From a virus (taxonomy: Duplodnaviria; Heunggongvirae; Uroviricota; Caudoviricetes): a DNA stretch of 16,102 bases. A program made the position numbers and the translations under genes. Below are positions 1 to 14,872 of this stretch, piece after piece (position 1 is the first letter of the stretch; the number at the start of each line of letters is the position of its first letter). Location: positions 1 to 16,102 of IMG/VR virus record IMGVR_UViG_2778261646_000017; one strand, given 5' to 3'. The notes under the pieces were generated by a model, which made no database searches, had not been told where the DNA came from, and saw only the letters and a program-made list of their open reading frames with translations.

Positions 1-1461
1 ATGAAAAAATTACTGCGTCTTTTTTTCCCGCTCTCGCTGCGGGTACGTTTTCTGTTGGCAACGGCAGCGGTAGTACTGGTGCTTTCGCTTGCCTACGGAA
101 TGGTCGCGCTGATCGGTTATAGCGTCAGTTTCGATAAAACTACGTTTCGGCTGTTACGTGGCGAGAGCAATCTGTTCTATACCCTTGCGAAGTGGGAAAA
201 CAATAAGTTGCATGTCGAGTTACCCGAAAATATCGACAAGCAAAGCCCCACCATGACGCTAATTTATGATGAGAACGGGCAGCTTTTATGGGCGCAACGT
301 GACGTGCCCTGGCTGATGAAGATGATCCAGCCTGACTGGCTGAAATCGAATGGTTTTCATGAAATTGAAGCGGATGTTAACGATACCAGCCTCTTGCTGA
401 GTGGAGATCATTCGATACAGCAACAGTTGCAGGAAGTGCGGGAAGATGATGACGACGCGGAGATGACCCACTCGGTAGCGGTAAACGTCTACCCGGCAAC
501 ATCGCGGATGCCAAAGTTAACCATTGTGGTGGTGGATACCATTCCGGTGGAGCTAAAAAGTTCCTATATGGTCTGGAGCTGGTTTATCTATGTGCTCTCA
601 GCCAATCTGCTGTTAGTGATCCCGCTGCTGTGGGTCGCCGCCTGGTGGAGTTTACGCCCCATCGAAGCCCTGGCAAAAGAAGTCCGCGAACTGGAAGAAC
701 ATAACCGCGAATTGCTCAATCCTGCCACAACGCGAGAACTGACCAGTCTGGTACGAAACCTGAACCGACTGTTAAAAAGTGAACGCGAACGTTACGACAA
801 ATATCGTACGACGCTCACCGACCTGACCCATAGTCTGAAAACGCCACTGGCGGTGCTGCAAAGTACGCTGCGTTCTCTGCGTAGTGAGAAGATGAGCGTC
901 AGTGATGCTGAGCCGGTAATGCTGGAGCAAATCAGCCGCATTTCACAGCAAATTGGCTACTACCTGCATCGTGCCAGTATGCGCGGCGGGACATTGCTTA
1001 GCCGCGAGCTGCATCCGGTCGCCCCACTGTTGGACAATCTCACCTCGGCGCTGAACAAAGTGTATCAACGCAAAGGGGTCAATATCTCTCTCGATATTTC
1101 GCCAGAGATCAGCTTTGTTGGTGAGCAGAACGATTTTGTCGAGGTGATGGGCAATGTGCTGGATAATGCCTGTAAATATTGCCTCGAGTTTGTCGAAATT
1201 TCTGCAAGGCAAACCGACGAGCATCTCTATATTGTGGTCGAGGATGATGGCCCCGGTATTCCATTAAGCAAGCGAGAGGTCATTTTCGACCGTGGTCAAC
1301 GGGTTGATACTTTACGCCCTGGGCAAGGTGTGGGGCTGGCGGTAGCCCGCGAAATCACCGAGCAATATGAGGGTAAAATCGTCGCCGGAGAGAGCATGCT
1401 GGGCGGTGCGCGGATGGAGGTGATTTTTGGTCGCCAGCATTCTGCGCCGAAAGATGAATAA
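1..1461 (+). CDS. phoQ: Two-component sensor histidine kinase PhoQ (complete, 486 aa)
   Basis: 486-aa ORF starting [33 protein letters not shown]; periplasmic acidic patch [12 protein letters not shown] region, H-box [10 protein letters not shown], ATPase G-boxes DDGPGI and GQGVGL; recognised as E. coli PhoQ. Confidence 0.97.
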
Positions 1462-1583
1462 ATATGTCCTTTTATCACCACAGCAAGGCAACCCATTGAT
1501 TTAATTAAACAACCCACACTGCAAAAAGTGCTAAAAACAGCAAATTGACTACACCATTAACTACACCGTTCGGTGCACTGTAT

Positions 1584-1610: not shown

Positions 1611-1900
1611 GAAATATACAGGCGGGTAATCTTTCCAGGGGGAAGCGCACCAATTCATGAGGGGCGTTAATGTCGATATGGGGATCCCCATAACGGGGCT
1701 ACCGGATTTTTTTTCCGGTTAACTGTTAATCAGGCTGGTGGGTTTTACCTGTTCGGTAGGTGTTATGATTATCGTAATACCTTTCCCCCAGTGGGGTAAA
1801 AGCTCCAACCGTAACGATGTTCGTTGTGGTTGCCTTGATGGTCTGCGTGGTCATTATGACCATTCCCAAAAACAACATATTCGTTGTTTTTCTGTGCCCC

Positions 1901-2330
1901 GACCTCCTCAAATTGAGGAGGTCGAAAGTATCAACCAGTTACCGCGCCGACTTCCTCAAATTGAGGTTCCCGAAAATATCAGCGGGTTAACGATCAAACT
2001 GGCGAGTAATTAAACTGCGAAAATTTCGCATGTGAGGGATGTAGTCGGCGCAATTTTGCGCTTTGCTTTAATCTCAGTAAGTTACCGCGCCAACTTCCAC
2101 AGTCTGTGGAAATTGGGAAGAATCAACGGTTTAGGCCTTAATCATCTGCGTAATCATAAGTAATCATAATGTTCATTCAGCCACGCAATTTTGCGTTATC
2201 GGGAATATCAGCAAGTTACCGCGCCGGATTCCGCCAATGGCTGTTTCCGAAAGAATCAACGGGTTAGGCTGGTTTCCCCGATGTTCGCCGCTGGCGAATT
2301 TCGAAAATATCAACCAGTTACCGCCGCAAC
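1901..2330. repeat. Array of seven copies of a degenerate 12-17 bp motif (ATCARC-NR-GTTA, four extended to AGTTACCGCGCC) interleaved with hairpins
   Basis: Motif copies at 1931-1948, 1976-1992, 2074-2091, 2121-2137, 2205-2225, 2254-2269, 2307-2327; perfect 11-bp-arm palindrome gacctcctcaa-a-ttgaggaggtc at 1901-1923 with a degenerate copy at 1949-1970; palindrome ttccacag-t-ctgtggaa at 2094-2110. Confidence 0.6.
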
Positions 2331-2599
2331 CGCTCCGGCTTCTTCCAGTGGTACGTTATTTTTTCTTTCTCCCGATGCAGTTCAACGCGGCGATTGTAGG
2401 CCAGCATTTCAAGAACGCGGATCCGTATGTTGCGCATATCAACATCATTAAGCTGGATACCATCACGGCGCATCACCTCAGCAACAACACGCGCATAATT
2501 TTCGGCTGTCACGCTGTCCGGCTGCGTGGTCTGTTCGTCAGCCTGCTGGTTGATTCCAGAGACGCGGCGGATTAATCGCAGTATTTCGGCTTCTGTCAT
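2318..2599 (-). CDS. Hypothetical protein, 93 aa (orphan gene after TerL; candidate accessory gene)
   Basis: ORF MTEAEILRLIRRVSGINQQADEQ...; GAGG Shine-Dalgarno 9 nt upstream of ATG at 2599; enteric-like codon usage; starts 14 bp after the TerL stop. No family recognised. Confidence 0.55.
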   Translation of the reverse strand: MTEAEILRLIRRVSGINQQADEQTTQPDSVTAENYARVVAEVMRRDGIQLNDVDMRNIRIRVLEMLAYNRRVELHREKEKITYHWKKPERLRR

Positions 2600-2612
2600 G
2601 CTGCTGACCTCA

Positions 2613-4274
2613 TTACACCCCGCTAAATTCTTCCAGTTTCTGGCGGTGGCTGTCGCTTATATCAAAAGCAAAATCCTCATGCTCTGCCTGAAATGTACCA
2701 AACGCCATCAGTGCCGCTACGCTCGGGTCTATCTTGTTCGGTGATTTTTTCTTGTTCGGCTTGATATTGGCGTTCGCGTCACTCTGCATCACGACGTTAC
2801 TCATCGACCAGGACAACACCGGATCGCCACGATGCACAATCACCCTGCGGTTAACAAAAACTTCGAACGATTTCGCCGCCGGACTGAATCTGAGGTAGGT
2901 TTGCGGGAACGGCTCCACCTCAAAGCCTGCCCCCTGTAATTGCGTTCTCAGGTGCGTGGCGTTCCACGTATCGAAGCCCACCCGCCTGATATTAAATTTC
3001 TCGGCGTCCTGCATGATGTCATCTCTGATCCGGTCGTAATCAATGCAGTCGCCAGGCGTTGTGCGTATCCAGCCCGCTTTAGCCCACTGGCGATAGACAG
3101 CGCGATTTTTATTGGCTGGGTTCTGTAGCTGGAACTCCGGCAGATAATGACGGGAAACCAGCATGATATTTTTACCGACCGGAAAGGCATAGCATACGCT
3201 GGAAATATCGCTGGTTGATGATAAGTCCAGCCCCGCGTAACACTCCTGACCGTGTAAATCTTCCTCCGTGAACGTTCCGGTACACTCAGCCCATGCACCA
3301 TTACCCATCCACGGGGTAGTCCCCTGACACCAGATATTAAATCGCTTTGTCATCATCTCCACCCACTGCGACGGAATACCCCGCGCTTTCTGGATGGTTG
3401 AGGCCAGTTTTTCACGATCCACGGAAACATCGATGTTAGGGTTAGCCTTTATCCACATCGCCGGATCATCAACCTCGTTTTCGTCGTCCAGTTCGTAAAT
3501 CAGTACAAAAATTGAATCGTTGACCTCTTCGCCGTCCAGGATCTGGCAGCAATAATCATAGTGCTGCTTACAGGCTGAAACGACGTTACTGCCCGATGTG
3601 GTAATGGCAAATAACAGCCCTTCGGGACGTGCGCCCATCCCCATATCAAGTGCGGAATAAACCCCGTTGTCTGGGTGCAGGTGATATTCATCCACAATGG
3701 CAAGACTCGGGTTTGTCCCCTCAATGGTTGCCGCTTTTGCTGCCAGTGGCTTTAACAGGCTGTTGGTTTTCGGGTGTATCACCTTATGCGCCTGAATATT
3801 CACCCGCCTGCGTAACGGTCGGGATAAAAGGCACATCTGACGCGCATCATCAAAGACGATCCGCGCCTGGTCACGGCTCACCGCTGCGGTGTAGATATCC
3901 TGCTGACCGTTCTCCATAATCAGAAACCAGTTAGCCAGAATCGCGGCGGTCGTGGATTTCGCATTTTTGCGCGGCACTTCGATAAAGGCGCTCGTGTATT
4001 TGCGCCGTCCGGTGGCCTTAACCTTAAAGCCGAGGATGCACGCAAAGGCGAACTGCTGCCACGGCTCCAGCTCAATGGGTCTGCCACGCATCGGTCCTTT
4101 TACGTGCGGGCACACCCTGGAAAAGGCAATAAACCGCTCCACAACCTCACGATCGAACGTGTAAAGGGGGCTTTTAAGGTCCGAAAAGTACCGTTTAACA
4201 GCCTGTTTTAACCGTTTACAGGCCGGAATTTTGCCCGTTTTTACGTCTTCTGCGTACTTATTCCAGGCGGTCAA
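2613..4274 (-). CDS. terL: Terminase large subunit (Terminase_1-type ATPase/nuclease), 553 aa
   Basis: N-terminus YAEDVKTGKIPACKRLKQAVKRYFSDL typical of TerL; Walker A VPRKNAKST; Walker B-like LAIVDEYH; apparent TTG start inside the TerS 3' end with AGAGGA SD (17-nt overlap with TerS). Confidence 0.93.
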   Translation of the reverse strand: MTAWNKYAEDVKTGKIPACKRLKQAVKRYFSDLKSPLYTFDREVVERFIAFSRVCPHVKGPMRGRPIELEPWQQFAFACILGFKVKATGRRKYTSAFIEVPRKNAKSTTAAILANWFLIMENGQQDIYTAAVSRDQARIVFDDARQMCLLSRPLRRRVNIQAHKVIHPKTNSLLKPLAAKAATIEGTNPSLAIVDEYHLHPDNGVYSALDMGMGARPEGLLFAITTSGSNVVSACKQHYDYCCQILDGEEVNDSIFVLIYELDDENEVDDPAMWIKANPNIDVSVDREKLASTIQKARGIPSQWVEMMTKRFNIWCQGTTPWMGNGAWAECTGTFTEEDLHGQECYAGLDLSSTSDISSVCYAFPVGKNIMLVSRHYLPEFQLQNPANKNRAVYRQWAKAGWIRTTPGDCIDYDRIRDDIMQDAEKFNIRRVGFDTWNATHLRTQLQGAGFEVEPFPQTYLRFSPAAKSFEVFVNRRVIVHRGDPVLSWSMSNVVMQSDANANIKPNKKKSPNKIDPSVAALMAFGTFQAEHEDFAFDISDSHRQKLEEFSGV

Positions 4275-4614
4275 GCTCGTCCTCTTCTTCTGTTTCCGGT
4301 GGATTTTTACGGCGGCTTATCGGGTCAAAACCGAGCAAGGAGGCCATTTTTATCATCACTCTTTCAGCGTCGGATTTTGCGCTTAATGCGGGGTTTCTGC
4401 TCTCGCCGCCCTGACTGTTAACAATGCTGAACCCGCGCGCCGCAAGGTCTGCAACGGCTTTCCGGTAAATGGAGTAGTTGACGCAATACAGTTCCAGATT
4501 GCTCCAGTCGGCGGGGGTCAGGTCTCCCCGTTCCGCAAGCTGCCGCGATTTTTCCCGCCACTGCTTCACGGCGATATCATCCAGGTAGGCGGGGGCTTTC
4601 GGTGGTCTTGCCAT
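4258..4614 (-). CDS. terS: Terminase small subunit, P27-family-like, 118 aa
   Basis: MARPPKAPAYLDDIAVKQWREKSRQLAERGDLTPADWSNLELYCVNYSIY...NPALSAKSDAERVMIKMASLLGFDP with acidic C-terminus; directly upstream of and overlapping TerL. Confidence 0.8.
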   Translation of the reverse strand: MARPPKAPAYLDDIAVKQWREKSRQLAERGDLTPADWSNLELYCVNYSIYRKAVADLAARGFSIVNSQGGESRNPALSAKSDAERVMIKMASLLGFDPISRRKNPPETEEEDELDRLE

Positions 4615-4665
4615 GCTTATTTTTCGTCAGATTATTTTTCAAAAAATTCCCGTGCATAAAAATTT

Positions 4666-4724
4666 GGGGAGGCGTTCGGTGCCCGGCGGGGTCGGGTTTG
4701 TCCTGAAAACGCCCCCCACCCCGT
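4666..4724. other. Putative cos (cohesive-end) site: GC-rich segment with partial dyad symmetry in the 288-bp HNH-TerS intergenic gap
   Basis: ggggaggcgttcggtgcccggcggggtcgggtttgtcctgaaaacgccccccacccc; it is the only long non-coding gap in an otherwise overlap-coupled operon; HK97-like cos phages place cos between the HNH gene and terS. Confidence 0.4.
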
Positions 4725-4902
4725 CATACAGCCTCATCAGCGATTGCGGAAACATTCCATAACCTCGCGGTCACGGTCGGTTAATCGCTTCGCTGTGATG
4801 CGTTCTGCGCGTCCTGACGCTTTATCTTTATGCCCTGTTTCCTGTGTCTTCCATGCGTCACGCTGCCTTATAAGTCCACGGATAAGGCGGTTTTGTTCCC
4901 GC

Positions 4903-5343
4903 TCATTCATCAGCGTCATACATCCAGTTATTGCGGTTAGCGGCCCGTTCTTCCTCTTCATGAAATCCACCTGCGGCACGCTTGCTTTTTGTTGCCGGAT
5001 CAAGCCATTTCGTTTTCTGGTTATGACACGCCTGGCACAATGGTTGATGGTTCCATTCGGGCCAGAAGAGAACATCATCACCGCCATTAATCGGGATAAT
5101 GTGATCCACCACCACGGCGGGCGTATATATCCCCTTCTCAAGGCATCGCACGCATAACGGGTTTTTACTCAGATACATGGCGCGGTATTTGTCCCACTGT
5201 CTGGAGTACCCACGCGCGCGGCGGTGTCCTCGTCTGGCATCCTCTGCACGCCATGCCGCCCGCCTGTGCTCCTCACACTTGCCGGACTTCACGCGCCTGT
5301 TACAGCCTGGTTCTGTGCATCGTCTTAATGGTTGCCACGGCAT
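4903..5343 (-). CDS. HNH endonuclease (packaging-associated), 146 aa
   Basis: Cys pairs CTEPGC...C and CVRC...C, HNH core VVDHIIPINGGDD...NHQPLCQACHNQKT; GGGGGTG SD; sits immediately upstream of the cos-like gap and terS. Confidence 0.88.
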   Translation of the reverse strand: MPWQPLRRCTEPGCNRRVKSGKCEEHRRAAWRAEDARRGHRRARGYSRQWDKYRAMYLSKNPLCVRCLEKGIYTPAVVVDHIIPINGGDDVLFWPEWNHQPLCQACHNQKTKWLDPATKSKRAAGGFHEEEERAANRNNWMYDADE

Positions 5344-5639
5344 CAGTACACCCCCACATCACGGTAAGCCGTCCAGAGCGCGCCAATCGTCATGGGTACG
5401 CGCGTTTTTGCGTTATCCGCTACCAGCTGGCGATTCTCGTACAGGTGAGCGATAAACATCATGCAGCCAATCTTTATGGCTGGCGTGAACTCCAGCCCGT
5501 CATCAAAGCGCCTGCCTATATGTATCTGGCACGCCTCAAGCGATGCGGCAATGTATCCGCTGATTAACTGGTCTTCCTCGTCGCCATCGATGCGGCAATG
5601 GAGTTTCACTTCTTCCAGGGTGATAAGTTCTTCTGTCAT
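5343..5639 (-). CDS. gp6-like head-tail connector protein, 98 aa
   Basis: N-terminal LITLEEVKLHCRIDGDEEDQLISGYIAASLEACQ matches the gp6-like connector signature; GAGGG SD; ATGA start-stop overlap with the upstream adaptor gene. Confidence 0.75.
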   Translation of the reverse strand: MTEELITLEEVKLHCRIDGDEEDQLISGYIAASLEACQIHIGRRFDDGLEFTPAIKIGCMMFIAHLYENRQLVADNAKTRVPMTIGALWTAYRDVGVY

Positions 5640-5974
5640 TTTTCCGCGCCCTCACGACAAAGAATTTCAAGGCGTGTCCTGGCGGCATCCGGCAGCGGCT
5701 GCCCGATGATATTCAGTACACGCCCCGCCAGCGGCCCCGTATTGACCTTTATCCGGCTGGTGGCGTTGATGTCCTTCCTGTAGCGTATCCATATCCTTAC
5801 CGTTCCAGTCGCCAGTTCTGCACCCGATGAAATGGCCTCCTTGCTGCTGATCATGTTCACGCTTGCCCAGAGTGTGTGACCGTCCACCCACGTTTCGAGT
5901 ATTTCGCCGGTTATATCCCTGGTCTGTTTCAGGGTCTGAATCGTTACCCTGTCACGCAGTCGCCCTATGTTCAT
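5636..5974 (-). CDS. Head-tail adaptor / head-closure (joining) protein, about 112 aa
   Basis: GRLRDRVTIQ...TGEILETW...LWASV...RIWIRYR pattern of the phage head-tail joining family; start chosen at ATG 5974, which forms an ATGA overlap with the portal stop (the ORF track's longer start at 6016 has no SD). Confidence 0.75.
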   Translation of the reverse strand: MNIGRLRDRVTIQTLKQTRDITGEILETWVDGHTLWASVNMISSKEAISSGAELATGTVRIWIRYRKDINATSRIKVNTGPLAGRVLNIIGQPLPDAARTRLEILCREGAEK

Positions 5975-7182
5975 TCCGGTTTTTCTCCCTCGCTGATTTT
6001 TACTTCCTGTTTCCATGCCTGGCTGAACTCATCACCACCATCACGCGGGGACAGCCCTTCACGTTCGCGGGCTTCGTTCGGGCACATAACGCCGGATTTG
6101 ATGCCGCGTTCATAGGTGGCAAAGCGTTCGCCAGGTGTGGCCCGTAACAGGTCCGCGCTGTCAAACTCCACCTGATACCGGATACCAGGTACAGGTGAGG
6201 CCACCAGCAGGGCGTTTTTTATCTGCTGCTCAAAGTTCGCCAGCCACGGGCGCATCGTCATGGTGAGAAATGCGCGGCTTGCCTCGCTGAAATTGCTGTA
6301 GGTGCTGTTGCTGTATTCCTGCAAAAAAATCGGCGAGACGTTGAACATTCGGGCGATGTCTTCAATGGTGAAGCGACGGGAGGCCAGCCATTCAGCATCC
6401 TGATTACTCATGCCCAGCTGCTGATAGCTCATACCCCCTTCAAGGATGGGCGTTTTTCCGGCGTTTCTGGCCCCTTTGTAGCGTTCCAGTGCGGCTAATG
6501 CCTGTTTGCCCTTCACGCCGTCCAGCCATTCGCCTGACGTGATAACCCCTGCCGCCATCATGCCATCACGCATCACGCTCGCGCCGTGGCGTTGTTGGGC
6601 CAGCCCAAGCCCCAGCGATTCGCGGCAGATGGTTACAGGTGAGCGCCCCATAAAACCGTCATCCGTGGAGTAACGAAGGTGGAGAACCTCCCACGGTAAA
6701 TAGTTGCGGGTGTTTCCGGTGTAGGCGTCAGTGATGCAGTAGCGCCAGTTATGCTCACCTGTCTGCTCCACGTTCACCGACTGCGGCGGGTAAGGATGTA
6801 AAGCCACCGGAAAACCATCACGCCCCCACCGAATCACCGCATAAGCATTACCGTTTAACAGGCAGTGGCGGATCATCATTCGCTTAAACTGGTAGGGGGT
6901 TTGCCACGCGTTCGGGCGCTCGTTGAGGATGTGATCGACCGGATGAGAATCAAGCCACTCGCGGGCCTCCTTCCCCTTCTCATTGCGTACCAGGTACAGG
7001 TAACACGGCATGGTAGCCACCGCCTCAGAGATGACCGTCACGGCGTTCATGACGGCGGGCAGTGATTCCGCTGTCCCCGATGATACGTACTCACCCGCCC
7101 CCGTGTTCGATGTGCCGGCCAGCGCCATAAACTCATCAAGCGTCATGCTGCGCTGCTCTTTTTTTCTTCTGAAAGGCCACAT
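5971..7182 (-). CDS. Portal protein (HK97-family-like), 403 aa
   Basis: 403-aa ORF between protease and adaptor with portal-like features (…FNVSPIFLQEYSNSTYSNFSEASRAFLTMTMRPW…); GGGGGTG SD; start 1 nt after the protease stop. Confidence 0.9.
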   Translation of the reverse strand: MWPFRRKKEQRSMTLDEFMALAGTSNTGAGEYVSSGTAESLPAVMNAVTVISEAVATMPCYLYLVRNEKGKEAREWLDSHPVDHILNERPNAWQTPYQFKRMMIRHCLLNGNAYAVIRWGRDGFPVALHPYPPQSVNVEQTGEHNWRYCITDAYTGNTRNYLPWEVLHLRYSTDDGFMGRSPVTICRESLGLGLAQQRHGASVMRDGMMAAGVITSGEWLDGVKGKQALAALERYKGARNAGKTPILEGGMSYQQLGMSNQDAEWLASRRFTIEDIARMFNVSPIFLQEYSNSTYSNFSEASRAFLTMTMRPWLANFEQQIKNALLVASPVPGIRYQVEFDSADLLRATPGERFATYERGIKSGVMCPNEAREREGLSPRDGGDEFSQAWKQEVKISEGEKPE

Positions 7183-7183
7183 A

Positions 7184-7741
7184 TCACACCCCCGCTAAAT
7201 CCGCCCACCAGCGGCGATTATCCGCACGCGGCATTTTTTCGGGGTGCTGCTCGTACAGGGAGCGGCGGGCCAGCTCCACGCCAGAATCAGGGTAAGCCGG
7301 TACGGATGTAACGGTAATTTCGTACAGTTCCGCCACCAGCACGGTGCGCACGCATGGATCTGTTGTGGTATCCCATACATCCTTACGGGAGCGAAAGCCA
7401 AAGCTCATGCCGGATATATCACCTCGTTTAACCAGTTCGATAACGTCCCGCCCTGTACTGGTATCCGGTGGGGTCAGTTCAAAGCGTAACCCTGTGTCGT
7501 CCTCTTCCAGTTTCAGCGTGCCGGAACGGGTGCGCCCCAGTAACATGCTGTGGTCATGCTCATACAGGCCGCGAACGTCATTACCCGCTGCAAGCCATTC
7601 AGTAAACGCTCCCCGCTGGAATTTTTCGTAAAACTCCCCCCATAGCAGCTCTGAAAGGTTATCCCAGCGAACAACGTAGCCTGTAAGCGTGTTGCTGGCG
7701 CTGGTGGTGATTTCCGATGACCGGATTTCCATACTCTTCAT
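7184..7741 (-). CDS. Prohead maturation protease (HK97-family-like), about 185 aa
   Basis: MKSMEIRSSEITT...GYVVRWDNLSE...DHS..LLGRTRSGTL...GDISGMSFGF motifs; start placed at ATG 7741 (GGTGA SD) because the longer start at 7756 lies directly on the tail of the upstream terminator. Confidence 0.85.
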   Translation of the reverse strand: MKSMEIRSSEITTSASNTLTGYVVRWDNLSELLWGEFYEKFQRGAFTEWLAAGNDVRGLYEHDHSMLLGRTRSGTLKLEEDDTGLRFELTPPDTSTGRDVIELVKRGDISGMSFGFRSRKDVWDTTTDPCVRTVLVAELYEITVTSVPAYPDSGVELARRSLYEQHPEKMPRADNRRWWADLAGV

Positions 7742-7756
7742 AATTTTTTCACCCAT

Positions 7757-7786
7757 AAAACACTAAAGGGGCTTTTAAGCCCCTTC
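7757..7786 (-). terminator. Rho-independent terminator between the capsid and protease genes
   Basis: On the - strand: AAGGGGCT-TAAA-AGCCCCTT stem-loop followed by TTAGTGTTTT, 10 nt after the capsid stop. Confidence 0.6.
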
Positions 7787-7795
7787 TGTATGCTG

Positions 7796-8953
7796 TTAAT
7801 CGTCGTCCTGTGGCAGTTCCAGAATCTTGATCGCGTTCGAATCCACCACGCCACCGCCTAAATATTTCTGCGTGAAAATTTTGATGAAGCCCGGCTCTGT
7901 GAGGTTGTCCGGTCTGGTGCGAACACCTGTTTCGTGATCAACAATGTAGTAACCGCGTTTGAAGTCACCCAGGGCAATAACGTTATCAGGCATAAACTCC
8001 AGATATTCGACCGGAAGGCCCAGCAACGTATCAGGATCACCCGCCTGTAAACGGTCGCGCCAGATGTAATCACCGTTCGCGTTCTTCACCTTCTGAAGTT
8101 TTGCGGCCGTCGTGGAGTTAACCACCCAGACCGCGTTTTTGCGATATTTTTTATGTAATGCAAATTTCAGGTCGATCAGCGGGTCCGCAGATGTCCACGC
8201 CAGAGATTCGGAAGGTTTAATTACCTGTAACGTACCAAAATCACGCTCTTTGTCGTTCTTCTCTGCACGGGGTACGGATAAAAAGCCTTTTGCTTTTTTG
8301 TCACCGTCGCCCACAACCAGATCGCTTTCTTCGGTTTCCGTGAAGGTGTCGCCAATCTCACCCGTCAGCCATGAAAGGATGTCCACATCGGAAAAATCCA
8401 CGATTTCCTGTGTGGTGCGCGGGTACGCATAGACCGGATACAGCTTAATGCTCACCTCGTTAATCTGCGGGGTGCTGGTCTGTTCGCGTGCCTTACCCTC
8501 TTCACCGTGGTTAACGGTCGCACCGCCAGCGGAAACAAGCTGCTTAAACTCGTTGCTGCTGATTTTCTTCACGGTACAGATGCGGCGCATGGTGGATTCA
8601 TCCGCCAGCATTCGCATGATTTCGGTGTTCAGCTCGGGGATAACGGTATAACCACCATCAGCGGGAACGCCTGTACTTAATGCGCGGGTTTCACCTGTCA
8701 GGATGTAGTTTCGTAGTTCTGCGGGGTCAGTGGTCTGACTGCTTTTACCTGGCTTGCTGCGCTCTTCGTCTGCAATGGCTTCAAGGCGGGAAATGTCTTT
8801 ATCGAGGGATTCAGCTTTAGCGCGTAATTCGTCAAATTTTGCGCCCTCAGCATCGTTAAGACTGCGGTTTTCTTTTTCCGCGTTCTCCAGCATGTCGCGC
8901 ATCTGATTTTTAATGGCGGTTTTCTGCTGGCGTAATTCGATTATTCTCGGCAT
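7796..8953 (-). CDS. Major capsid protein, HK97-fold with N-terminal coiled-coil scaffold (delta) domain, 385 aa
   Basis: N-terminal 60 aa heptad-rich (LRQQKTAIKNQMRDMLENAEKENRSLNDAEGAKFDELRAKAESLDKDISRLEA); C-terminal body with capsid-like features (…GYYIVDHETGV…); followed by a terminator. Confidence 0.93.
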   Translation of the reverse strand: MPRIIELRQQKTAIKNQMRDMLENAEKENRSLNDAEGAKFDELRAKAESLDKDISRLEAIADEERSKPGKSSQTTDPAELRNYILTGETRALSTGVPADGGYTVIPELNTEIMRMLADESTMRRICTVKKISSNEFKQLVSAGGATVNHGEEGKAREQTSTPQINEVSIKLYPVYAYPRTTQEIVDFSDVDILSWLTGEIGDTFTETEESDLVVGDGDKKAKGFLSVPRAEKNDKERDFGTLQVIKPSESLAWTSADPLIDLKFALHKKYRKNAVWVVNSTTAAKLQKVKNANGDYIWRDRLQAGDPDTLLGLPVEYLEFMPDNVIALGDFKRGYYIVDHETGVRTRPDNLTEPGFIKIFTQKYLGGGVVDSNAIKILELPQDDD

Positions 8954-8960
8954 AAAAAAA

Positions 8961-8990
8961 GTCCTGGGGTTAAGTAAGGAACTCCAGGAC
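8961..8990 (-). promoter_or_regulatory. Stem-loop plus U7 tract immediately 5' of the capsid ATG; the stem contains the AGGA Shine-Dalgarno
   Basis: - strand reads GTCCTGG-(16-nt loop)-CCAGGAC-TTTTTTT-ATG; the only SD-like sequence (AGGA, 8 nt before ATG) is in the 3' arm of the 7-bp stem. Confidence 0.5.
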
Positions 8991-9167
8991 GCGGCAAAAA
9001 CTCAACCGTTTTTCATAAGGAAATCAGCAATCGCACCGATCGTTTTCCCGCCTGGTAATGAATATTGGCGAGAACATTAACAGGCGGAAAAGTGGCCCCA
9101 GCGTCCTGGCACCACGGGCGAGAATAATCATGATTCAGTTCGGGTAAAATATGCCGATCCGGTCAGC

Positions 9168-9193
9168 GAACAACGTGGAACAACCACGAACAA
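9168..9193. promoter_or_regulatory. Phased hexamer element GAACAA-cgtg-GAACAA-ccac-GAACAA, about 215 bp upstream of the capsid gene
   Basis: Three perfect GAACAA hexamers at 10-bp spacing; 9169-9193 is identical to the reverse complement of 14781-14805. Confidence 0.5.
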
Positions 9194-9210
9194 ATAATTT
9201 ACAAAACATG

Positions 9211-9235
9211 ACAAAAAGCCGGATTGCTCCGGCTG
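9211..9235 (-). terminator. Rho-independent terminator after the PerC-like gene (end of the early operon)
   Basis: - strand: AGCCGGA-GCAA-TCCGGCT followed by TTTTTGT, 6 nt after the stop. Confidence 0.6.
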
Positions 9236-9240
9236 TGTGA

Positions 9241-9513
9241 TTATCTGTCCTGGTAATTTCGCCATATTTCATCACCAGCACCATCCATACCCATTTCGGC
9301 ATAAGTGCGATCGACCGCCTTTTTCAGGTCTCCGTAATTATCCGGCGGCTCCGGTGGCCTCTGTGCCTTCCTGGAACATTCCAGCCGTCGCATCGTGATG
9401 TGATGCCGTTCCTTGTCTGTCTCCACCAGTTGCATGACTTCACCCCATCGCGCCGACGCTCTCCGGTAAAAGCCTTTCGCCTCCAGTTCTTCCGCTATGC
9501 GGTCATGTACCAT
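9241..9513 (-). CDS. PerC-like small transcriptional activator (putative), 90 aa
   Basis: MVHDRIAEELEAKGFYRRASARWGEVM... resembles my recollection of the PerC-family N-terminal signature (LE..G.WRRAA.RW); strong GAGGGGGG SD; family assignment not verified. Confidence 0.55.
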   Translation of the reverse strand: MVHDRIAEELEAKGFYRRASARWGEVMQLVETDKERHHITMRRLECSRKAQRPPEPPDNYGDLKKAVDRTYAEMGMDGAGDEIWRNYQDR

Positions 9514-9522
9514 CGCCCCCCC

Positions 9523-9933
9523 TCAGAACGGAATATCATCACCGTAAGGGTCATCGCCTCCCGCTGGTGGCTGATTACCCTGTGTGCCTGTGGTCTTGCG
9601 CCGGCTCCCACCAGGTCGCGCCGTTCTGGCACTGATTACGCTGTCTGCAATAACCTGCCAGCCCTGCCGCGTTTCGCCGTTCTGGCCTGTCCACTGGCTT
9701 ACCTGCATGTTACCCGCCACGCTCACCAGCTCGCCTTTGTGGTGTTTTGCCAGTGCGTCGGCCTGTCTGCCAAACGCCAGGACGGATAACCACATCGTCG
9801 CCTGTCCGTCATCTGCCTGATTGCACGGCAGGGGGACCGCCATGCTTGCCATAGCCATTTGTGTGCCCTTGCTGGTGGTCTTTAACTGCGGGTCAGCCAC
9901 CAGCCGCCCGTAAGCGGCTATCTGTGCTGTCAT
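9523..9933 (-). CDS. ssb: Single-stranded DNA-binding protein, divergent, with canonical acidic DDIPF C-terminal tail, 136 aa
   Basis: OB-fold-like core (YGRLVADPQLK...WLSVLAFGRQAD...KGELVSVAGNMQVSQW), Gly/Pro-rich linker and C-terminal DDPYGDDIPF; ATGA overlap with the upstream gene. Confidence 0.8.
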   Translation of the reverse strand: MTAQIAAYGRLVADPQLKTTSKGTQMAMASMAVPLPCNQADDGQATMWLSVLAFGRQADALAKHHKGELVSVAGNMQVSQWTGQNGETRQGWQVIADSVISARTARPGGSRRKTTGTQGNQPPAGGDDPYGDDIPF

Positions 9934-10187
9934 GATTCCACCTCTCCGGTTTTAACGTTGATGGTTGTTACCTGTTCCGCTTCGGCAATCTCCCGTTCCG
10001 TCAGCGTGGCAAAGTTTGCCGCCGCCGTGGTCATGAATGCGCTTATCAGGTCGGGATGTGCTTTCGCGTATCCTTCCCCCGTGTTGCGGTCGATGATTTT
10101 TATCGCCACTCTCAGCCAGTGCTCTGTAAGGTCAATGGCGCGGTTATGCTGCTTCTTCTGATTATTAAGTTTTCCTGATGTGCGCAT
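9930..10187 (-). CDS. Hypothetical protein, 85 aa
   Basis: ORF MRTSGKLNNQKKQHNRAIDLTEHW...; GAGGGGG SD; translationally coupled to ssb. No family recognised. Confidence 0.55.
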   Translation of the reverse strand: MRTSGKLNNQKKQHNRAIDLTEHWLRVAIKIIDRNTGEGYAKAHPDLISAFMTTAAANFATLTEREIAEAEQVTTINVKTGEVES

Positions 10188-10229
10188 TTTTATTTTTACC
10201 CCCTCGTTTAAAAAGTTTTGAGTTGTGCC

Positions 10230-10465
10230 TCCCCTTGTCTACCTTATCTACCTTACTGGCTCTCATGCCAGTAATGGCGCGGCTTTCAGCGGGGTAGAGT
10301 GCTTTTATCCACTATCTACCCCGTATCTACCTCCCTGTCTGATTCAGGTAAAATCAGGTAGAGAGGGTAGATAGTAGGTAGACAGTGAAAAAAGGCTGTC
10401 TACCTAAGTTAATATACTGAATTAAATGTATTTTTCTTTACTCAGGTAGACAGGGTAGACAGCCA
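10230..10465. repeat. Iteron-type replication origin: at least 11 copies of GGTAGA / TCTACC in both orientations flanking an AT-rich core
   Basis: tgtctacc, tatctacc (x3), ggtagag, aggtagagagggtagatagtaggtagacag, gtctacct, then AT-rich taagttaatatactgaattaaatgtatttttctttac, then aggtagacagggtagacag; immediately 3' of the primase gene. Confidence 0.7.
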
Positions 10466-10475
10466 TTGCAAAAAA

Positions 10476-12224
10476 TTATAAAAACGCGTCGCAATCGTCT
10501 GTTGTTATTGCGTTAGTCTGCGTTACTCCCTTAACTTTCCGCGTAATATATTCATGTCCGTAAACTTTCGCGGCTGGCTTCATAGCCTTGCCAAAGTCAT
10601 TTACGTTTAGCGGTTTGCTCCTGCCTGCGTATGCCATAAACGCCAGATAGACGCGGTAAAGGCTGTTTCTGGTCGTGTACTTCACTGAATCGCCACCGCC
10701 ACCCATCATCAGGCCGCGCGCTTCCTCCAGAAAATTCAGGAACTGGCAAAACTCAATAACCGGATCCGTCTGTTGCTTTATTGCCAGTGCTTCATCACCG
10801 TCACGCTGTTCCAGTAGTAAAGCCCGTGCCTTCTCAGGGTCGGTAAAGTTCGCCAGCAAGCGGCGGATAATGACAGGGATTTCAGCCGCGATCTTTTCCG
10901 GTAGCTCCCTGTCTTTTTCTGCCTCGCTTACGATATTGTCGAAGCGGAAAATAACCCGACGACGTGACACGCCTCCGGCCCGTTCGGTGAATATCATCGG
11001 GTTGTTATTGGTCGCCAGCACCACCGCCCTGATTACCGTAGTGAAACGCTTTTCATATTTCGGGTTGATTTCCACGGGGTCGCCGCCCGTGATTTTCTTG
11101 ATGCCCGTGCCTTCGCCTGTATATTTCGGCTGGTCTGCCAGGACGATAAGACGACTCCCGACAACCTGCGCACGCCCACCAGCATCATCAAGCGATGTCA
11201 TTTCCGCGCTTACCGTGTTTTGTTTCCCCGCTAAAAGGCTGGCGATGTGGGTGAATGTACTTTTGCCGCTCCCGCCGTCTCCGGTGGCCTCAATAAACAT
11301 CTGCCAGTCGTACCGGTTCGCCATAATCATGTACAGCGCGGCACATATACGCATCATCTTGCGCTGGTCTTTTCCGGCTGCGTGATCAAGCCATTTATGA
11401 AAGTTTGGCGCGTTATCGCGGATGTTCTCCCCAGGTGCTGGTGGCGTGTACTCAATGCCGTTGTGCGTGGTGATCCAGTTCTCCGGCGTGTGCGGGGAAA
11501 ATTCCCCCGTTTTCAGGTCAAGCGCACCATTGGCGAACGGCAACAAATCGCCGGACGGCTCGCCCATTGGTTCGGCAATAACTTTTAACGCTTCCACGGC
11601 GTTATTGATTACGCGCTTGCTGAAAGTGGCCCTGTGCTCTGAATAGATCGCCACCATTTCGCGGCTAAGTTCCATTGTGCTGACCGGACACCATACCCCG
11701 CCGCGCCATACGTGAACGATTTCACTTTCCGGATGCACACAAACGCCATCAAATCGACCAGCAAGCATCTGTGCGCGCTCACTGTCTGCCATTTGTGCCA
11801 GTTGCGTATTTTTCTGCTCCGGCATGGTAAGCCCTGCGGCAATATTTTCACGCTCAGCATTCAGATAGCGCCGCCAGTTTTCACACTTCTGGACGTGCAT
11901 TCCTTCGGGGTAAAAATTTGCGTCCTGAATATCTGCCGCCGCCAGCTTCTGACCAATCTTTTTGGTCTCCACCAAATCCAGTTCTCCGGCCTGGTACAGC
12001 CTTACGCGCTTTTTCCCATCCGGAACAATTTTCAGCGCATCAAGTTCGGCAAGCTGATTTGGCCCAAGCCACACAGGCGGCACATTATCGCCGGATGCGG
12101 GGCCGTCCTGCTCCTGCCACTGTTTTGCATGTGACCACGCATCACTACCCGCGAAAATAATTACCTCTGTGTCTTTGTGTTTTATTCCGCGTGGCTGTTT
12201 TTTTACGTTCGGTGCCAGTTTCAT
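10476..12224 (-). CDS. Replication protein: primase / SF3-type helicase (P4 alpha-like, PICI Pri-Rep-like), 582 aa
   Basis: Walker A GDGGSGKST, Walker B-like RLIVLAD, N-terminal primase-like region; ATGA-coupled to the upstream small gene; iterons directly downstream. Confidence 0.88.
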   Translation of the reverse strand: MKLAPNVKKQPRGIKHKDTEVIIFAGSDAWSHAKQWQEQDGPASGDNVPPVWLGPNQLAELDALKIVPDGKKRVRLYQAGELDLVETKKIGQKLAAADIQDANFYPEGMHVQKCENWRRYLNAERENIAAGLTMPEQKNTQLAQMADSERAQMLAGRFDGVCVHPESEIVHVWRGGVWCPVSTMELSREMVAIYSEHRATFSKRVINNAVEALKVIAEPMGEPSGDLLPFANGALDLKTGEFSPHTPENWITTHNGIEYTPPAPGENIRDNAPNFHKWLDHAAGKDQRKMMRICAALYMIMANRYDWQMFIEATGDGGSGKSTFTHIASLLAGKQNTVSAEMTSLDDAGGRAQVVGSRLIVLADQPKYTGEGTGIKKITGGDPVEINPKYEKRFTTVIRAVVLATNNNPMIFTERAGGVSRRRVIFRFDNIVSEAEKDRELPEKIAAEIPVIIRRLLANFTDPEKARALLLEQRDGDEALAIKQQTDPVIEFCQFLNFLEEARGLMMGGGGDSVKYTTRNSLYRVYLAFMAYAGRSKPLNVNDFGKAMKPAAKVYGHEYITRKVKGVTQTNAITTDDCDAFL

Positions 12225-12520
12225 TTTTTACCCCTGAATACGTTAAGCATCTTTTTTATTTCCTGAATATTGGCGCGTGCTTTCTCCCTGCTGGTTGGTT
12301 TACTGCGGGGCGCTGCCTGTACCAGAGAAAAATCACGCCGAAACTGATAAACAGGCATCACGCAATCATATTCGTAGCCTTCACGACGGTAGGTGATGCG
12401 CCGTTCTGCCACGCCTTTAATCGTTACCATGCCGCCATATTTATCGCGGTAAATATCGCCGTTCATAAATTCAGGACGAGCGGGGCCGCTGGCAGTAACG
12501 CCAGAATTTTTATTTTTCAT
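12221..12520 (-). CDS. Hypothetical protein, 99 aa
   Basis: ORF MKNKNSGVTASGPARPEFMNGDIYRDKYGGMVTIKGVAERRITYRREGYEYDCVMPVYQF...; basic C-terminus; no family assigned with confidence. Confidence 0.55.
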   Translation of the reverse strand: MKNKNSGVTASGPARPEFMNGDIYRDKYGGMVTIKGVAERRITYRREGYEYDCVMPVYQFRRDFSLVQAAPRSKPTSREKARANIQEIKKMLNVFRGKK

Positions 12521-12525
12521 GTTTT

Positions 12526-12753
12526 TTATTCTCCGGTGTGCTGCGCTTTATTATTCTCGTGAATTGCCATCACTGTATTTAATTCATTAATAACAGGCGT
12601 TAATAGCGTACGCACGGCAGAAAACATCATTGAATCAGATTCATCGCCACTTTCCGGCACATCAATTAACTTAAGTAGTAATGCGTCCATTTCCTTTGCG
12701 CGGATTAATGCGTTTTCAGAATGAACAAGAACATCAAAGGGTATTTTATGCAT
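12526..12753 (-). CDS. Hypothetical protein, 75 aa (start at the internal ATG with AGGGGGGAG SD)
   Basis: MHKIPFDVLVHSENALIRAKEMDALLLKLIDVPESGDESD...; the longer start offered by the ORF track (12855) has no SD and overlaps the upstream gene. Confidence 0.5.
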   Translation of the reverse strand: MHKIPFDVLVHSENALIRAKEMDALLLKLIDVPESGDESDSMMFSAVRTLLTPVINELNTVMAIHENNKAQHTGE

Positions 12754-12916
12754 GACTCCCCCCCTGGCGAATACGGGCGACAAAAATAAGATGTGCGTGC
12801 GGCAGCTGTGCACGTGCTTCGCGCTCAGTGGCAGCGGTAACGGTGAATATTGCAATACTGTCTGTCAGGCACTGCATAAAGCGCCAGACAAAATAAGGGC
12901 GTGCGAATACAGCCAT
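12746..12916 (-). CDS. Small protein, 56 aa, paralog of the gene at 13203-13406 (possibly the Icd-like cell-division-inhibitor family; unverified)
   Basis: MAVFARPYFVWRFMQCLTDSIAIFTVTAATEREARAQLPHAHLIFVARIRQGGSHA aligns with the C-terminal 50 aa of the upstream paralog (WRF...EARxQ.P......F.ARIRQG.SHA). The reading frame stays open upstream to 13210, so the N-terminus is uncertain. Confidence 0.5.
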   Translation of the reverse strand: MAVFARPYFVWRFMQCLTDSIAIFTVTAATEREARAQLPHAHLIFVARIRQGGSHA

Positions 12917-13202
12917 GTGAAAGGCTCCCAGATGAATTTTAAGGAGTCTCGCTACTACGCTGCTAAACATGGTGGCGAGACGTAACAGGGTTAGCAGACT
13001 GGTCATCTGGAAACCAGCGAGCACAAAGGCTCCCCCGTTACGCCCCGCCATAATGCGGGTATGGGTAGGTTTACGGACACAAAAAAACCGCTTATCGGAT
13101 GTGGGCGGCTGTCCGCCAGATGTATTCAGGCTGCTAAACCCGGTCGCCATGTGGGCGACGGGGGAAGCATACAGCCCCGTGATAATTTTTTGCAAGCGGT
13201 TT

Positions 13203-13406: not shown

Positions 13407-13501
13407 AGCTACCTCGATACTTTCGCTATCGTTGGTGGTTAGAGGCTGCGAAAGGACGGCAATCCTTTTCAGCCTCGTTTGCATTGAGTGATAGTTACTC
13501 A

Positions 13502-13582: not shown

Positions 13583-13602
13583 AATCACAAAGGAAACCGG
13601 AA

Positions 13603-13782: not shown

Positions 13783-13839
13783 TCACTATCAGCGCCGTGG
13801 CGTGAGGTACTCCGGCGCATTGCTTTACAGGTCAGTACT

Positions 13840-14826: not shown

Positions 14827-14872
14827 CTGTGTGCTTATCCAGTATGCGCATACTGAAAAAACACGAAAAAAA

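What the first reader, a model, noticed from the sequence alone, without database searches (positions are those of the whole stretch)
1901..2330. Seven-copy motif array with interleaved hairpins at the phoQ-proximal end of the island
Seven copies of a 12-17 bp motif (ATCARC-NR-GTTA, four extended to AGTTACCGCGCC) recur at irregular 42-100 bp spacing, each followed by a palindrome or its degenerate remnant (perfect 23-bp palindrome at 1901-1923). The array fills the otherwise gene-free 0.85 kb between the 93-aa gene and phoQ. In the excised circle this DNA would lie next to attP and the int promoter. Possible roles are arm-type integrase/excisionase (AlpA) binding sites, decayed att scars from repeated insertions at this site, or a binding array for a packaging or partition protein. 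It is not CRISPR-like: the spacing is irregular, the repeats are degenerate, and there are no cas genes.
Basis: seen in the sequence. Interest (0 to 1): 0.6.

Follow-up and report, generated by a model that had tools for sequence, protein, structure and literature searches.

The report
Satellite island's IHF-site hairpin repeats
The gene-free tail of this phage-satellite island holds seven shuffled copies of a roughly 48-base unit, each a textbook binding site for the host DNA-bending protein IHF next to a small hairpin; this looks like a satellite-specific cousin of the chromosomal BIME repeats, and its function is unproven.

Summary
Seven motif copies lie at 1930-2320. Six fit ATCARCNRGTTA with at most one mismatch (0.77 expected in the window).

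The DNA belongs to the island, not the host. Island-free E. coli match only up to base 1469. The island is a capsid-forming PICI (phage satellite) inserted after phoQ.

The motif is the IHF consensus WATCARNNNNTTR. Each copy sits 6 nt from a ~25-nt hairpin whose stem sequence varies but stays paired (61 distinct units, 93% of cells paired, 8 of 9 pairs compensated). The unit runs TAAC-NNN-YTGAT-WYTTYCG-hairpin on the gene strand. The first unit starts at the stop codon of the last late gene.

In about 145 related loci the units form one cluster per island. They lie on the gene strand, at the 3' end of several PICI types, with 0-7 copies drawn from about 10 hairpin types in more than 35 orders.

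The array is not the integrase arm sites. Those are the doubled ACTACACC 12-mers near both att ends. It is also not cos, replication iterons, CRISPR or REP.

Best reading: a PICI-specific repeat built like BIME-1/RIB elements, bound by IHF, dispensable, and remodelled by recombination at the shared motif. Function is untested. Interest is moderate.

The parts
2267..2320 (-). Unit 1, canonical. The IHF-consensus site is 2308-2320 on the + strand (TATCAACCAGTTA). Its TAA is the stop codon of the 93-aa gene. The hairpin core is TTCGCC-GCT-GGCGAA at 2284-2298.
   Evidence: CM hit 2273-2320(-), E 5e-13; IHF consensus match; palindrome
2219..2266 (-). Unit 2, canonical 48 nt. The IHF site is 2254-2266 (AATCAACGGGTTA). 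The hairpin is imperfect: GGAAACAGCCATTGGCGGAATCC on the gene strand.
   Evidence: CM hit E 7e-15
2134..2218 (-). Unit 3, long variant. The IHF-type site is 2206-2218 (TATCAGCAAGTTA) and the hairpin ACGCAATTTTGCGT is at 2183-2196. It is followed by an A/T-rich filler containing GTAATCATAA twice.
   Evidence: weak CM hit 2176-2218, E 0.66
2085..2133 (-). Unit 4, canonical. The IHF site is 2121-2133 (AATCAACGGTTTA). The hairpin has 13-bp arms at 2090-2116.
   Evidence: CM hit E 3e-10
1990..2084 (-). Unit 5, degenerate variant. The motif is ATCTCAGTAAGTTA at 2071-2084 and does not fit the IHF consensus. Two hairpins lie at 2048-2061 and 2016-2030.
1942..1989 (-). Unit 6, canonical 48 nt. The IHF-type site is 1977-1989 (TATCAGCGGGTTA). 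The hairpin CCTCAAATTGAGG is at 1954-1966, with an A-rich internal loop.
   Evidence: CM hit E 5e-15
1894..1941 (-). Unit 7, canonical and furthest from the gene. The IHF site is 1929-1941 (TATCAACCAGTTA). The perfect 12-bp-arm palindrome is at 1900-1924.
   Evidence: CM hit E 1e-13
1868..1891 (.). Hairpin AAAAACAAC-ATATTC-GTTGTTTTT, with an A run on one side and a T run on the other. It is terminator-like in both directions and lies just beyond the last unit.
   Evidence: The stem is GC-poor, so the terminator scan did not list it. Its role as a terminator is inferred.
2318..2599 (-). 93-aa gene of unknown function (PHROG 1561) and last gene of the late operon. Its stop codon opens unit 1. 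It travels with the spacer through several PICI types.
1460..1567 (.). Context, not part of the array: the attP/attL arm. It holds the core AAATATGTCC (1460-1469), a perfect IHF site (1489-1501, - strand) and the doubled arm-type-like 12-mers (1544-1567).

Best explanation
The array is a cluster of a repeat family specific to phage satellites. Each unit of about 48 bp joins a consensus binding site for the host DNA-bending protein IHF (WATCARNNNNTTR) to a hairpin-forming palindrome of about 25 nt at a fixed 6-nt distance.

The units sit head to tail in the untranslated tail of the island's late (packaging) operon. This tail runs from the stop codon of the last gene to a terminator-like hairpin, ahead of the conserved attP arm.

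Proposed mechanism:
- Shown: the anatomy, the consensus fit, the conservation of pairing and the distribution.
- Inferred: IHF binds each site and bends the DNA. The palindromes form hairpins in the transcript or in transiently single-stranded DNA. Together they act as the chromosomal BIME-1/RIB elements are thought to act at 3' ends of transcription units, as an architectural and insulating 3'-end module. Such a module would buffer the attP/int region and the neighbouring host gene from late-operon transcription and supercoiling, and may protect the mRNA 3' end.
- Inferred from comparison: the module is dispensable. It expands, contracts and reshuffles by recombination at the shared 12-19 bp motif.
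For: IHF consensus:
- WATCAANNNNTTR occurs 6 times in the window against 0.63 expected, 4 of them in the array. WATCARNNNNTTR occurs 9 times against 1.05 expected, 6 of them in the array.
- In the 35-kb locus L001, 6 of 11 matches fall within these 427 bp.
- Of 53 distinct units, 51 fit WATCARNNNNTTR. Information is 1.9-2.0 bits at the fixed consensus positions. The W position holds only A or T and the R6 position only A or G. The four N positions carry 0.6-1.25 bits.

Hairpin:
- The consensus structure has 9 pairs. In 61 distinct units 93% of cells are paired and 8 of 9 pairs show compensatory change. The covariation score is 0.467, against 0.199 for shuffles and at most 0.126 for slid controls.

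Position and distribution:
- Unit 1 starts at the stop codon. All units lie on the gene strand, in one cluster of at most 510 bp per island.
- Units occur at the 3' end of capsid-forming PICIs, Rpp-type PICIs and a RepA-helicase PICI that lacks the 93-aa gene.
- Copy number is 0-7. About 10 hairpin types appear in more than 35 orders, with junctions at or within the motif. L075 carries a recent 132-bp tandem duplication.

Precedent: BIME-1 linkers carry an IHF site, sit at 3' ends of transcription units and vary in number between strains (PMC3333891).
Against: - No binding data exist; IHF binding rests on the consensus alone.
- The A-tract that accompanies strong IHF sites is not at its usual position.
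- The covariance model was trained on the motif, so the 51/53 fit is partly circular.
- Hairpin covariation comes from about 10 old paralogous types, not from many independent events.
- Most hairpins carry a 2-3 nt mismatched internal loop and lack U runs. They are therefore poor cruciforms and are not intrinsic terminators.
- Hairpin stability does not differ between strands with RNA parameters (p = 0.65), so an RNA role is not demonstrated.
- Islands with zero units look intact, so any function is non-essential and may be nil.
Confidence: 0.4

Rival explanations
1. The element acts purely at the RNA level. The units are hairpins in the 3' UTR of the late-operon mRNA. They would protect it from 3' exonucleases, be processed into small RNAs, or sponge an RNA-binding protein through the conserved single-stranded UAACNNGUUGAUAUUUUCG linker. 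On this view the match to the IHF consensus is incidental.
For: - The units start at the stop codon, are always on the gene strand, and precede a terminator-like hairpin.
- Stems covary while the linker stays fixed.
- In model pairs, G.T cells outnumber A.C cells 47 to 8 on the gene strand.
- The gene-strand fold of 1890-2330 has z = -3.9, against -2.5 for the other strand.
Against: - 28 of the 47 G.T cells belong to one doubtful basal pair.
- Unit hairpins are equally stable on both strands with RNA parameters.
- Loops are mostly 1-3 nt.
- There is no Rfam match at E up to 5.
- The linker's pattern of fixed and free positions mirrors the IHF DNA consensus exactly, which an RNA constraint does not predict.
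Confidence: 0.2
2. The array is functionless recombination debris. The spacer between the last late gene and the att arm is where PICI modules are exchanged. Short repeats and palindromes accumulate there neutrally through unequal crossing-over and duplication.
For: - Copy number ranges from 0 to 7 and more than 35 architectures exist.
- Unit tails (GGCGCGG, GACGGCGG) copy the last codons of the 93-aa gene.
- L075 carries a recent 132-bp duplication.
- Other islands carry unrelated repeat sets in the same spacer.
Against: - Neutral debris should not keep 93% pairing with compensatory changes.
- It should not keep about 2 bits at exactly the IHF-specified positions across 53 distinct units.
- It should not keep a fixed motif-to-hairpin distance and a single orientation.
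Confidence: 0.15
3. The units are sites for a satellite-encoded or helper-phage-encoded protein. They could be decoy or borrowed binding sites for lambdoid O-type replication initiators, or operators for the adjacent 93-aa protein.
For: - The hairpin CCTC-AAATT-GAGG has the same arms and spacing as the lambda ori iterons TCCCTC-AAAAC-GAGGGA and TCCCTC-AAATT-GGGGGA.
- The 93-aa gene usually abuts the array.
- Other islands carry phased GTGAC x4 or TGTTAAC repeats in the same spacer.
Against: - Scans of 2.9 million viral contigs found tandem CCTCAATTTGAGG only once. They found ATCCCCCATTGGGGGA only inside PICI units or as lone chance hits.
- There is no DNA match to 50,697 phage records.
- Units occur without the 93-aa gene (L030), and the gene occurs without units (L021).
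- The protein has no recognisable DNA-binding family, and its structure model is poor.
Confidence: 0.08
4. The units are miniature single-strand mobile elements. A hairpin with a conserved 5' flank (TTGAT or TTAC) is the substrate architecture of Y1/HUH transposases (IS200/IS605, REP-RAYT). The units would insert next to one another and so build the array.
For: - The conserved flank lies at a fixed distance from the hairpin foot.
- Units are shuffled like cassettes, with junctions at the motif.
- TTGAT and TTAC are the target sites of ISDra2 and IS608 (recalled from memory, not tested here).
Against: - No transposase is annotated in the island.
- Units are never found outside the single cluster per island, in 1.03 Mb of loci searched. 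E. coli genomes hold a median of one place each.
- Homologous recombination at a 12-19 bp repeat explains the junctions equally well.
Confidence: 0.07
5. This is the first reader's reading: the units are arm-type integrase or AlpA sites, or scars of earlier att sites.
For: The array lies on the attP side of the island and repeats a short motif in one orientation.
Against: - The doubled ACTACACC 12-mers on both arms fit the published PICI attP layout.
- The array motif is absent from the int-side arm.
- It lies 430-850 bp from the core.
- It is present at six different att sites, and absent from some islands with the same arms.
- Units hold no core sequence.
Confidence: 0.03

Closest known systems
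BIME-1 / RIB (RIP) elements of the E. coli chromosome: REP palindromes flanking an IHF-binding linker
   Same: - An IHF consensus site is joined to hairpin-forming palindromes.
- The elements lie at the 3' end of a transcription unit.
- Copy number at a given locus varies between strains.
- No essential function is known (PMC3333891).
   Different: - There is no REP consensus sequence in the array.
- Each IHF site has one hairpin, not two inverted REPs.
- Units are tandem and co-oriented.
- About 10 stem sequences are used rather than one family sequence.
- Units are confined to one spot in phage-satellite islands, not dispersed over hundreds of loci.
IHF sites of lambdoid attP (H1, H2, H') and cosB (I1)
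   Same: - They share the same consensus.
- They occur in a mobile element, next to attP.
- The island has its own single attP IHF site at 1489-1501.
   Different: - Those are single sites at fixed positions within a recombination or packaging complex.
- Here there are 0-7 dispensable copies, 430-850 bp from the core and about 2.4 kb from the probable cos.
Doubled-motif arm sites of PICI attP (helper-embedded PICI study, PMC10111431)
   Different: That role is taken here by the ACTACACC doublets at 1544-1567 and on the int side, about 80-90 and 130-155 bp from the core. The array does not fill it.
CRISPR arrays and type III antitoxin (ToxI-like) repeat arrays
   Same: They show a partly regular ~48-nt period of a conserved segment alternating with a variable one.
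   Different: - The variable segment is itself a conserved-structure hairpin drawn from about 10 types, not a spacer.
- There is no cas gene or toxin gene.
- There is no Rfam hit.

Membership tests
REP/BIME-1 (RIB/RIP) | Palindromic units with the REP consensus (GCCKGATGCGRCG...) | tested here: not met
   With up to 2 mismatches there are 3 hits in the window, at the chance level (2.06 expected), and none in 1462-2330.
REP/BIME-1 (RIB/RIP) | An IHF consensus site in the linker beside the palindromes | tested here: met
   Six WATCARNNNNTTR sites lie in 427 bp. 51 of 53 distinct units fit the consensus.
REP/BIME-1 (RIB/RIP) | Two palindromic units in inverted orientation around the IHF site | tested here: not met
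   There is one hairpin per site, and all units are co-oriented on the gene strand.
REP/BIME-1 (RIB/RIP) | [quoted passage not shown] | tested here: met
   The first unit begins at the stop codon of the last late gene in every island examined.
REP/BIME-1 (RIB/RIP) | Dispersed at many chromosomal loci | tested here: not met
   There is one cluster per locus in 1.03 Mb searched. E. coli genomes hold a median of 1 and at most 6 places, and every place inspected was the end of a satellite island.
REP/BIME-1 (RIB/RIP) | IHF actually binds | not testable with these tools
   This needs EMSA, footprinting or ChIP.
Integrase arm-type sites / RDF (AlpA) sites | Copies on both attP arms at fixed distances from the core, specific to the integrase | tested here: not met
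   The motif is absent from the int-side arm. The array is 430-850 bp from the core. It is found at phoQ, ydgV/tqsA, allC, clpS, yifB and yejO sites, with 0-7 copies. The ACTACACC doublets meet this feature instead.
Lambda-type or HK97-type cos | A cosN cleavage sequence, or a TerS site upstream of terS | tested here: not met
   GGGCGGCGACCT has no hit in the array. In Rpp-type islands it lies beside rpp. The candidate HK97-like cos is at about 4660-4730. Islands with identical TerS carry 1-7 units.
Replication-origin iterons | The same repeat beside the initiator/primase gene, or matching helper ori iterons | tested here: not met
   No motif copy lies near the primase gene at 10476-12224. Scans for the hairpin sequences found no tandem arrays resembling phage ori iterons.
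CRISPR | Identical repeats, unique spacers and cas genes | tested here: not met
   The repeats are degenerate, the 'spacers' are hairpins of about 10 recurring types, and there are no cas genes.
IS200/IS605 or REP-RAYT type elements | An associated Y1/HUH transposase and copies at multiple target sites | tested here: not met
   No transposase is annotated in the island, and units are confined to one cluster. A transposase acting in trans elsewhere in the genome was not searched for.

The most novel reading that the evidence does not exclude
The units are a cis-acting device specific to satellites. One version has them recruit host IHF to fold or mark satellite DNA, which would favour its replication, excision or packaging over the helper's. 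Another has the multi-hairpin transcript sequester a host or helper RNA-binding factor. On either version, the copy-number differences between islands (0-7) would tune satellite fitness or helper range.
Probability: 0.12. Interest if true: 0.7.

Novelty: new variant of a known kind. Interest (0 to 1): 0.45.

Why it matters
Capsid-forming PICIs and their relatives are under active study as gene-transfer agents, and the island here matches O157:H7 strains at 100% over the array. None of the PICI papers I could search or read mentions this array.

If IHF does bind, the array would be a compact and naturally variable (0-7 copies) model for testing what IHF-plus-palindrome repeats do at the ends of transcription units. 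That question has been open for chromosomal BIME-1/RIB elements since the 1990s. Here it could be tested with a simple deletion and a transfer assay.

If the array proves neutral, it still marks the recombination joint where E. coli satellites of different packaging types exchange their att-proximal module.

Tried and rejected
- Rfam scan of 1400-2700 at E up to 5: no match.
- Sigma-70 promoter scan: none. Terminator scan: at the chance level.
- Phage records: no DNA or protein match for 1470-2600 or for the 93-aa protein.
- Lambda-type cos: cosN is absent from the array. The EcCICFT073 cos1 sequence from the supplement of PMC6092414 is unrelated to it.
- HK97-type TerS site: that is a single 15-bp site next to cos, not an array.
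- Lambda O-iteron decoy idea: it rests on a shared CCTC-N5-GAGG, but scans of viral contigs did not support it.
- Strand assignment: G.T versus A.C counts pointed to the gene strand. A paired energy test showed no difference with RNA parameters and only 0.16 kcal/mol with DNA parameters, so the strand is left undecided.
- 93-aa protein: no Pfam family, PHROG of unknown function, a narrow family of 39 clusters, and an AlphaFold pLDDT of 67. I did not run a fold search on such a weak model.
- Scan of genome contigs with the 93-aa protein: only one close relative (Shigella) and one doubtful hit. Taxonomic breadth beyond Escherichia/Shigella is therefore unknown.
- RIB reference sequences: the original RIB paper (PMC413762) is not held, and the MG1655 record carries no REP/RIP features. 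No direct sequence comparison with the BIME-1 linker was possible.
- One literature search was wasted on phoQ papers.

Full report
**Context.** The window opens with phoQ (1-1461, + strand). The rest is a mobile island whose genes all lie on the - strand: integrase (14873-16102), P4-like primase (10476-12224), SSB, PerC, HK97-type capsid, protease and portal, head completion genes, HNH (4903-5343), P27-family TerS (4258-4614), TerL (2613-4274) and a 93-aa gene (2318-2599). This is the gene set of a capsid-forming PICI as defined in bioRxiv 10.1101/2022.09.08.507074. The island is inserted between phoQ and roxA. The array is 100% identical in O157:H7 strains, so the island is probably EcCIEDL933 or a near-identical copy. 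That is an inference; I did not inspect the EDL933 record.

**Is the array host or island DNA?** Of 5426 complete E. coli genomes, 5369 match the query 1400-2700. Island-free genomes, K-12 included, match only query bases 1-70, which is window 1400-1469. 111 genomes carry 80% or more of the interval.

**The observation.** The motif ATCARCNRGTTA with at most 1 mismatch occurs six times, all on the + strand between 1930 and 2320. 0.77 are expected and no shuffle reaches six. A seventh, degenerate copy lies at 2071. Palindromes accompany the copies. Perfect hairpins with stems of 6 bp or more are five times denser in the 1470-2317 spacer than in the rest of the island, at 13 against 2.6 per kb.

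**Anatomy of the unit.** Read on the gene (-) strand, the array resolves into seven head-to-tail units that start at window 2320, 2266, 2218, 2133, 2084, 1989 and 1941. A canonical unit is TAAC-NNN-YTGAT-WYTTYCG, followed by a hairpin of about 25 nt, followed by a G-rich tail such as GGCGCGG. The hairpin has a 3-4 bp base, usually an A-rich mismatched internal loop, a 5-6 bp apical stem and a 1-3 nt loop. The TAA of the first unit is the stop codon of the 93-aa gene. Just beyond the last unit lies a hairpin with an A run on one side and a T run on the other (1868-1891). It could terminate transcription in either direction; that role is inferred.

**The motif is the IHF consensus.** On the + strand the motif is WATCARNNNNTTR, the published consensus for E. 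coli IHF. Both the A and the R forms are in the literature.
- WATCAANNNNTTR occurs 6 times in the window against 0.63 expected, 4 of them in the array.
- WATCARNNNNTTR occurs 9 times against 1.05 expected, 6 of them in the array.
- In the 35-kb locus L001, 6 of 11 matches fall within these 427 bp.
- Across 53 distinct units from many islands, 51 fit the consensus. Information content is 1.9-2.0 bits at the fixed consensus positions. The W position holds only A or T and the R6 position only A or G. The four N positions carry 0.6-1.25 bits.

The fixed and free positions of the repeat thus coincide with those of the IHF site. This is the main argument that IHF binding is the constraint. Two caveats apply. 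The model used to collect units was trained on the motif, and no binding data exist.

**The hairpin is conserved as a structure.** RNAalifold on 14 units gave a 9-pair consensus with 7 compensated pairs. A covariance model built from it found 105 strong hits in 543 kb of related loci. On the 61 distinct sequences:
- 93% of cells are paired, and 8 of 9 pairs show double changes.
- The covariation score is 0.467, against 0.199 for column shuffles and at most 0.126 for slid partners.

The variation comes from about ten recurring hairpin types, such as CCTCAATTTGAGG, TCCCCCATTGGGGGA, GCGCAAAATTGCGC, TTCGCCAGCGGCGAA and CAGCCAACGGCTG. The events are therefore old and few.

Which strand folds is undecided. 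G.T cells outnumber A.C cells 47 to 8 on the gene strand, but 28 of the 47 belong to one basal pair. Unit hairpins are equally stable on both strands with RNA parameters (p = 0.65) and differ by only 0.16 kcal/mol with DNA parameters.

**Distribution.**
- The same spacer, with units, follows the last late gene in capsid-forming PICIs at the phoQ, ydgV/tqsA, allC, clpS and yifB sites. It also occurs in Rpp-type PICIs and in a RepA-helicase PICI at yejO that lacks the 93-aa gene.
- PICIs with a protease-capsid fusion gene have the 93-aa gene and spacer but no units.
- Units are always on the gene strand, in a single cluster of at most 510 bp. There are 1-5 canonical copies per island and 0-7 when variants are counted. 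This window holds the largest array seen.
- Helper-embedded PICIs of a different integrase clade lack the units.
- 1315 of 5426 E. coli genomes carry related sequence. No phage record does, and the four plasmid records that match are all Escherichia.
- More than 35 array architectures are built from the same hairpin types in different orders. Junctions fall at or within the motif, and one locus has a fresh 132-bp tandem duplication.
- Unit tails repeat the last codons of the 93-aa gene, whose C-terminus KKPERLRR is conserved.

The simplest account of this remodelling is unequal recombination at the 12-19 bp shared motif. That account is inferred.

**What the array is not.**
- Not the attP arm sites. 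The att core is AAATATGTCC (1460-1469; its partner is at L001 31875-31884). A perfect IHF site sits at 1489-1501. A doubled 12-mer, ATTGACTACACC/ATTAACTACACC, sits at 1544-1567 and recurs co-oriented on the int side (L001 31726-31749). This reproduces the doubled-motif layout, about 81 and 132 bp either side of the attP centre, reported for PICIs in PMC10111431. In the yejO island, which uses a different att site, the doublet is replaced by TTTAGTTATACG twice.
- Not cos. The lambda-type cosN used by Rpp-type PICIs is absent from the window's array and lies beside rpp in those islands. The capsid-forming PICI has a G-rich, A-tract region upstream of terS that fits an HK97-type cos.
- Not replication iterons, since no copy lies near the primase gene.
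- Not CRISPR.
- Not REP, since the REP consensus is absent.

**Mechanism.** The closest known design is the chromosomal BIME-1/RIB element: an IHF site joined to hairpin-forming palindromes at the 3' ends of transcription units, variable in number between strains (PMC3333891). By analogy I propose that IHF binds and bends each unit and that the palindromes fold in the transcript or in transiently single-stranded DNA. The cluster would then act as a dispensable architectural or insulating module between the strongly transcribed late operon and the attP/int region, or the convergent host gene. Only the anatomy, the consensus fit, the structural conservation and the distribution are shown. Binding and effect are inferred. 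I give this 0.4.

**Novelty.** None of the PICI papers I could search or read mentions the array. It fails the sequence and dispersal criteria for REP/BIME membership but shares their logic. I therefore class it as a new variant of a known kind. Interest is moderate (0.45): the pattern is striking and testable, but the array is dispensable and no function has been demonstrated.

Noticed in passing
window 1734-15218 (14 sites; for example 1734-1741 +, 6201-6208 -): The recombination hotspot Chi (GCTGGTGG) occurs 14 times in 16.1 kb against 0.59 expected, 7 on each strand; 13 of the 14 lie inside the island. That is about one per 1.1 kb, several times the chromosomal average of about one per 4.6 kb (a figure from memory). 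One Chi site sits in the conserved att-proximal block, and Chi sites also occur in the equivalent spacer of other islands. This may protect the linear or rolling-circle satellite DNA from RecBCD.
   Followed up: partly
window 1460-1567; L001 31722-31885: The full attP-like layout is present: core AAATATGTCC, a perfect IHF site (1489-1501, - strand), and a doubled 12-mer ATT(G/A)ACTACACC on both arms, co-oriented, about 80-90 and 130-155 bp from the core. The doublet is conserved in islands at six att sites. The yejO island (L030) has TTTAGTTATACG twice instead.
   Followed up: yes
window 4660-4736 (- strand, between the 60-aa ORF and terS): A G-rich stretch (GGGGTGGGGGGCG) followed by A/T tracts lies just upstream of the P27-family terS. 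It is the likely HK97-type cos of this capsid-forming PICI.
   Followed up: no
L021 2812-2860, L013 and L007 (same spacer); L004 (reverse strand): Some islands carry GTGAC four times at exact 10-bp phasing (CGTGACGGAGAGTGACAACCAGTGACACGCCGTGAC) in place of, or beside, the IHF/hairpin units. It looks like a binding array for an unknown protein. It was not seen in the window's spacer sequence.
   Followed up: no
L029 about 2400-2560; L138 4735-4905: TTGCGGGTTA occurs three times, followed by its inverse (TAACCCGC) three times around an A/T-rich segment. In L138 this sits directly after terL, and a fragment of a phage terminase gene follows, so that capsid-forming PICI appears to be a helper-embedded PICI inserted in a prophage terL. 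These repeats are probably the arm sites of that integrase clade.
   Followed up: partly
L009 about 3570-3720: Another repeat family (TGTTAAC, about five copies in both orientations) occupies the same spacer in a clpS-site island.
   Followed up: no
window 2318-2599 (- strand): The 93-aa gene (PHROG 1561, no Pfam family) belongs to a very narrow family: 39 clusters at 50% identity among 1.8 billion proteins. Its C-terminus Y-x-W-KKPERLRR is conserved. It travels with the spacer through PICI types that have different packaging modules. The AlphaFold model is three helices with pLDDT 67. It may or may not be the 'hypothetical gene 1792' whose deletion reduced EcCIEDL933 transfer in the cf-PICI preprint.
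   Followed up: partly
window 1806-1830: The conserved hairpin ACCGTAACGATGTTCGTTGTGGT pairs fully on the + strand through two G.T wobbles but has A.C mismatches on the gene strand. This is the opposite polarity to the wobbles in the array units. The conserved 1600-1890 block may hold a separate element on the + strand.
   Followed up: no
window 1459-1470: The island is inserted 8 bp after the phoQ stop codon, which cuts phoQ off from whatever lay downstream of it. phoPQ transcripts must now end inside the island, and candidate stops are the hairpins at 1701-1719 and 1868-1891.
   Followed up: no
L075 770-925: Two identical copies of a 132-bp block (a variant unit plus the TCCCCCATTGGGGGA unit) lie in tandem. 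This is direct evidence that arrays grow by recent duplication.
   Followed up: partly
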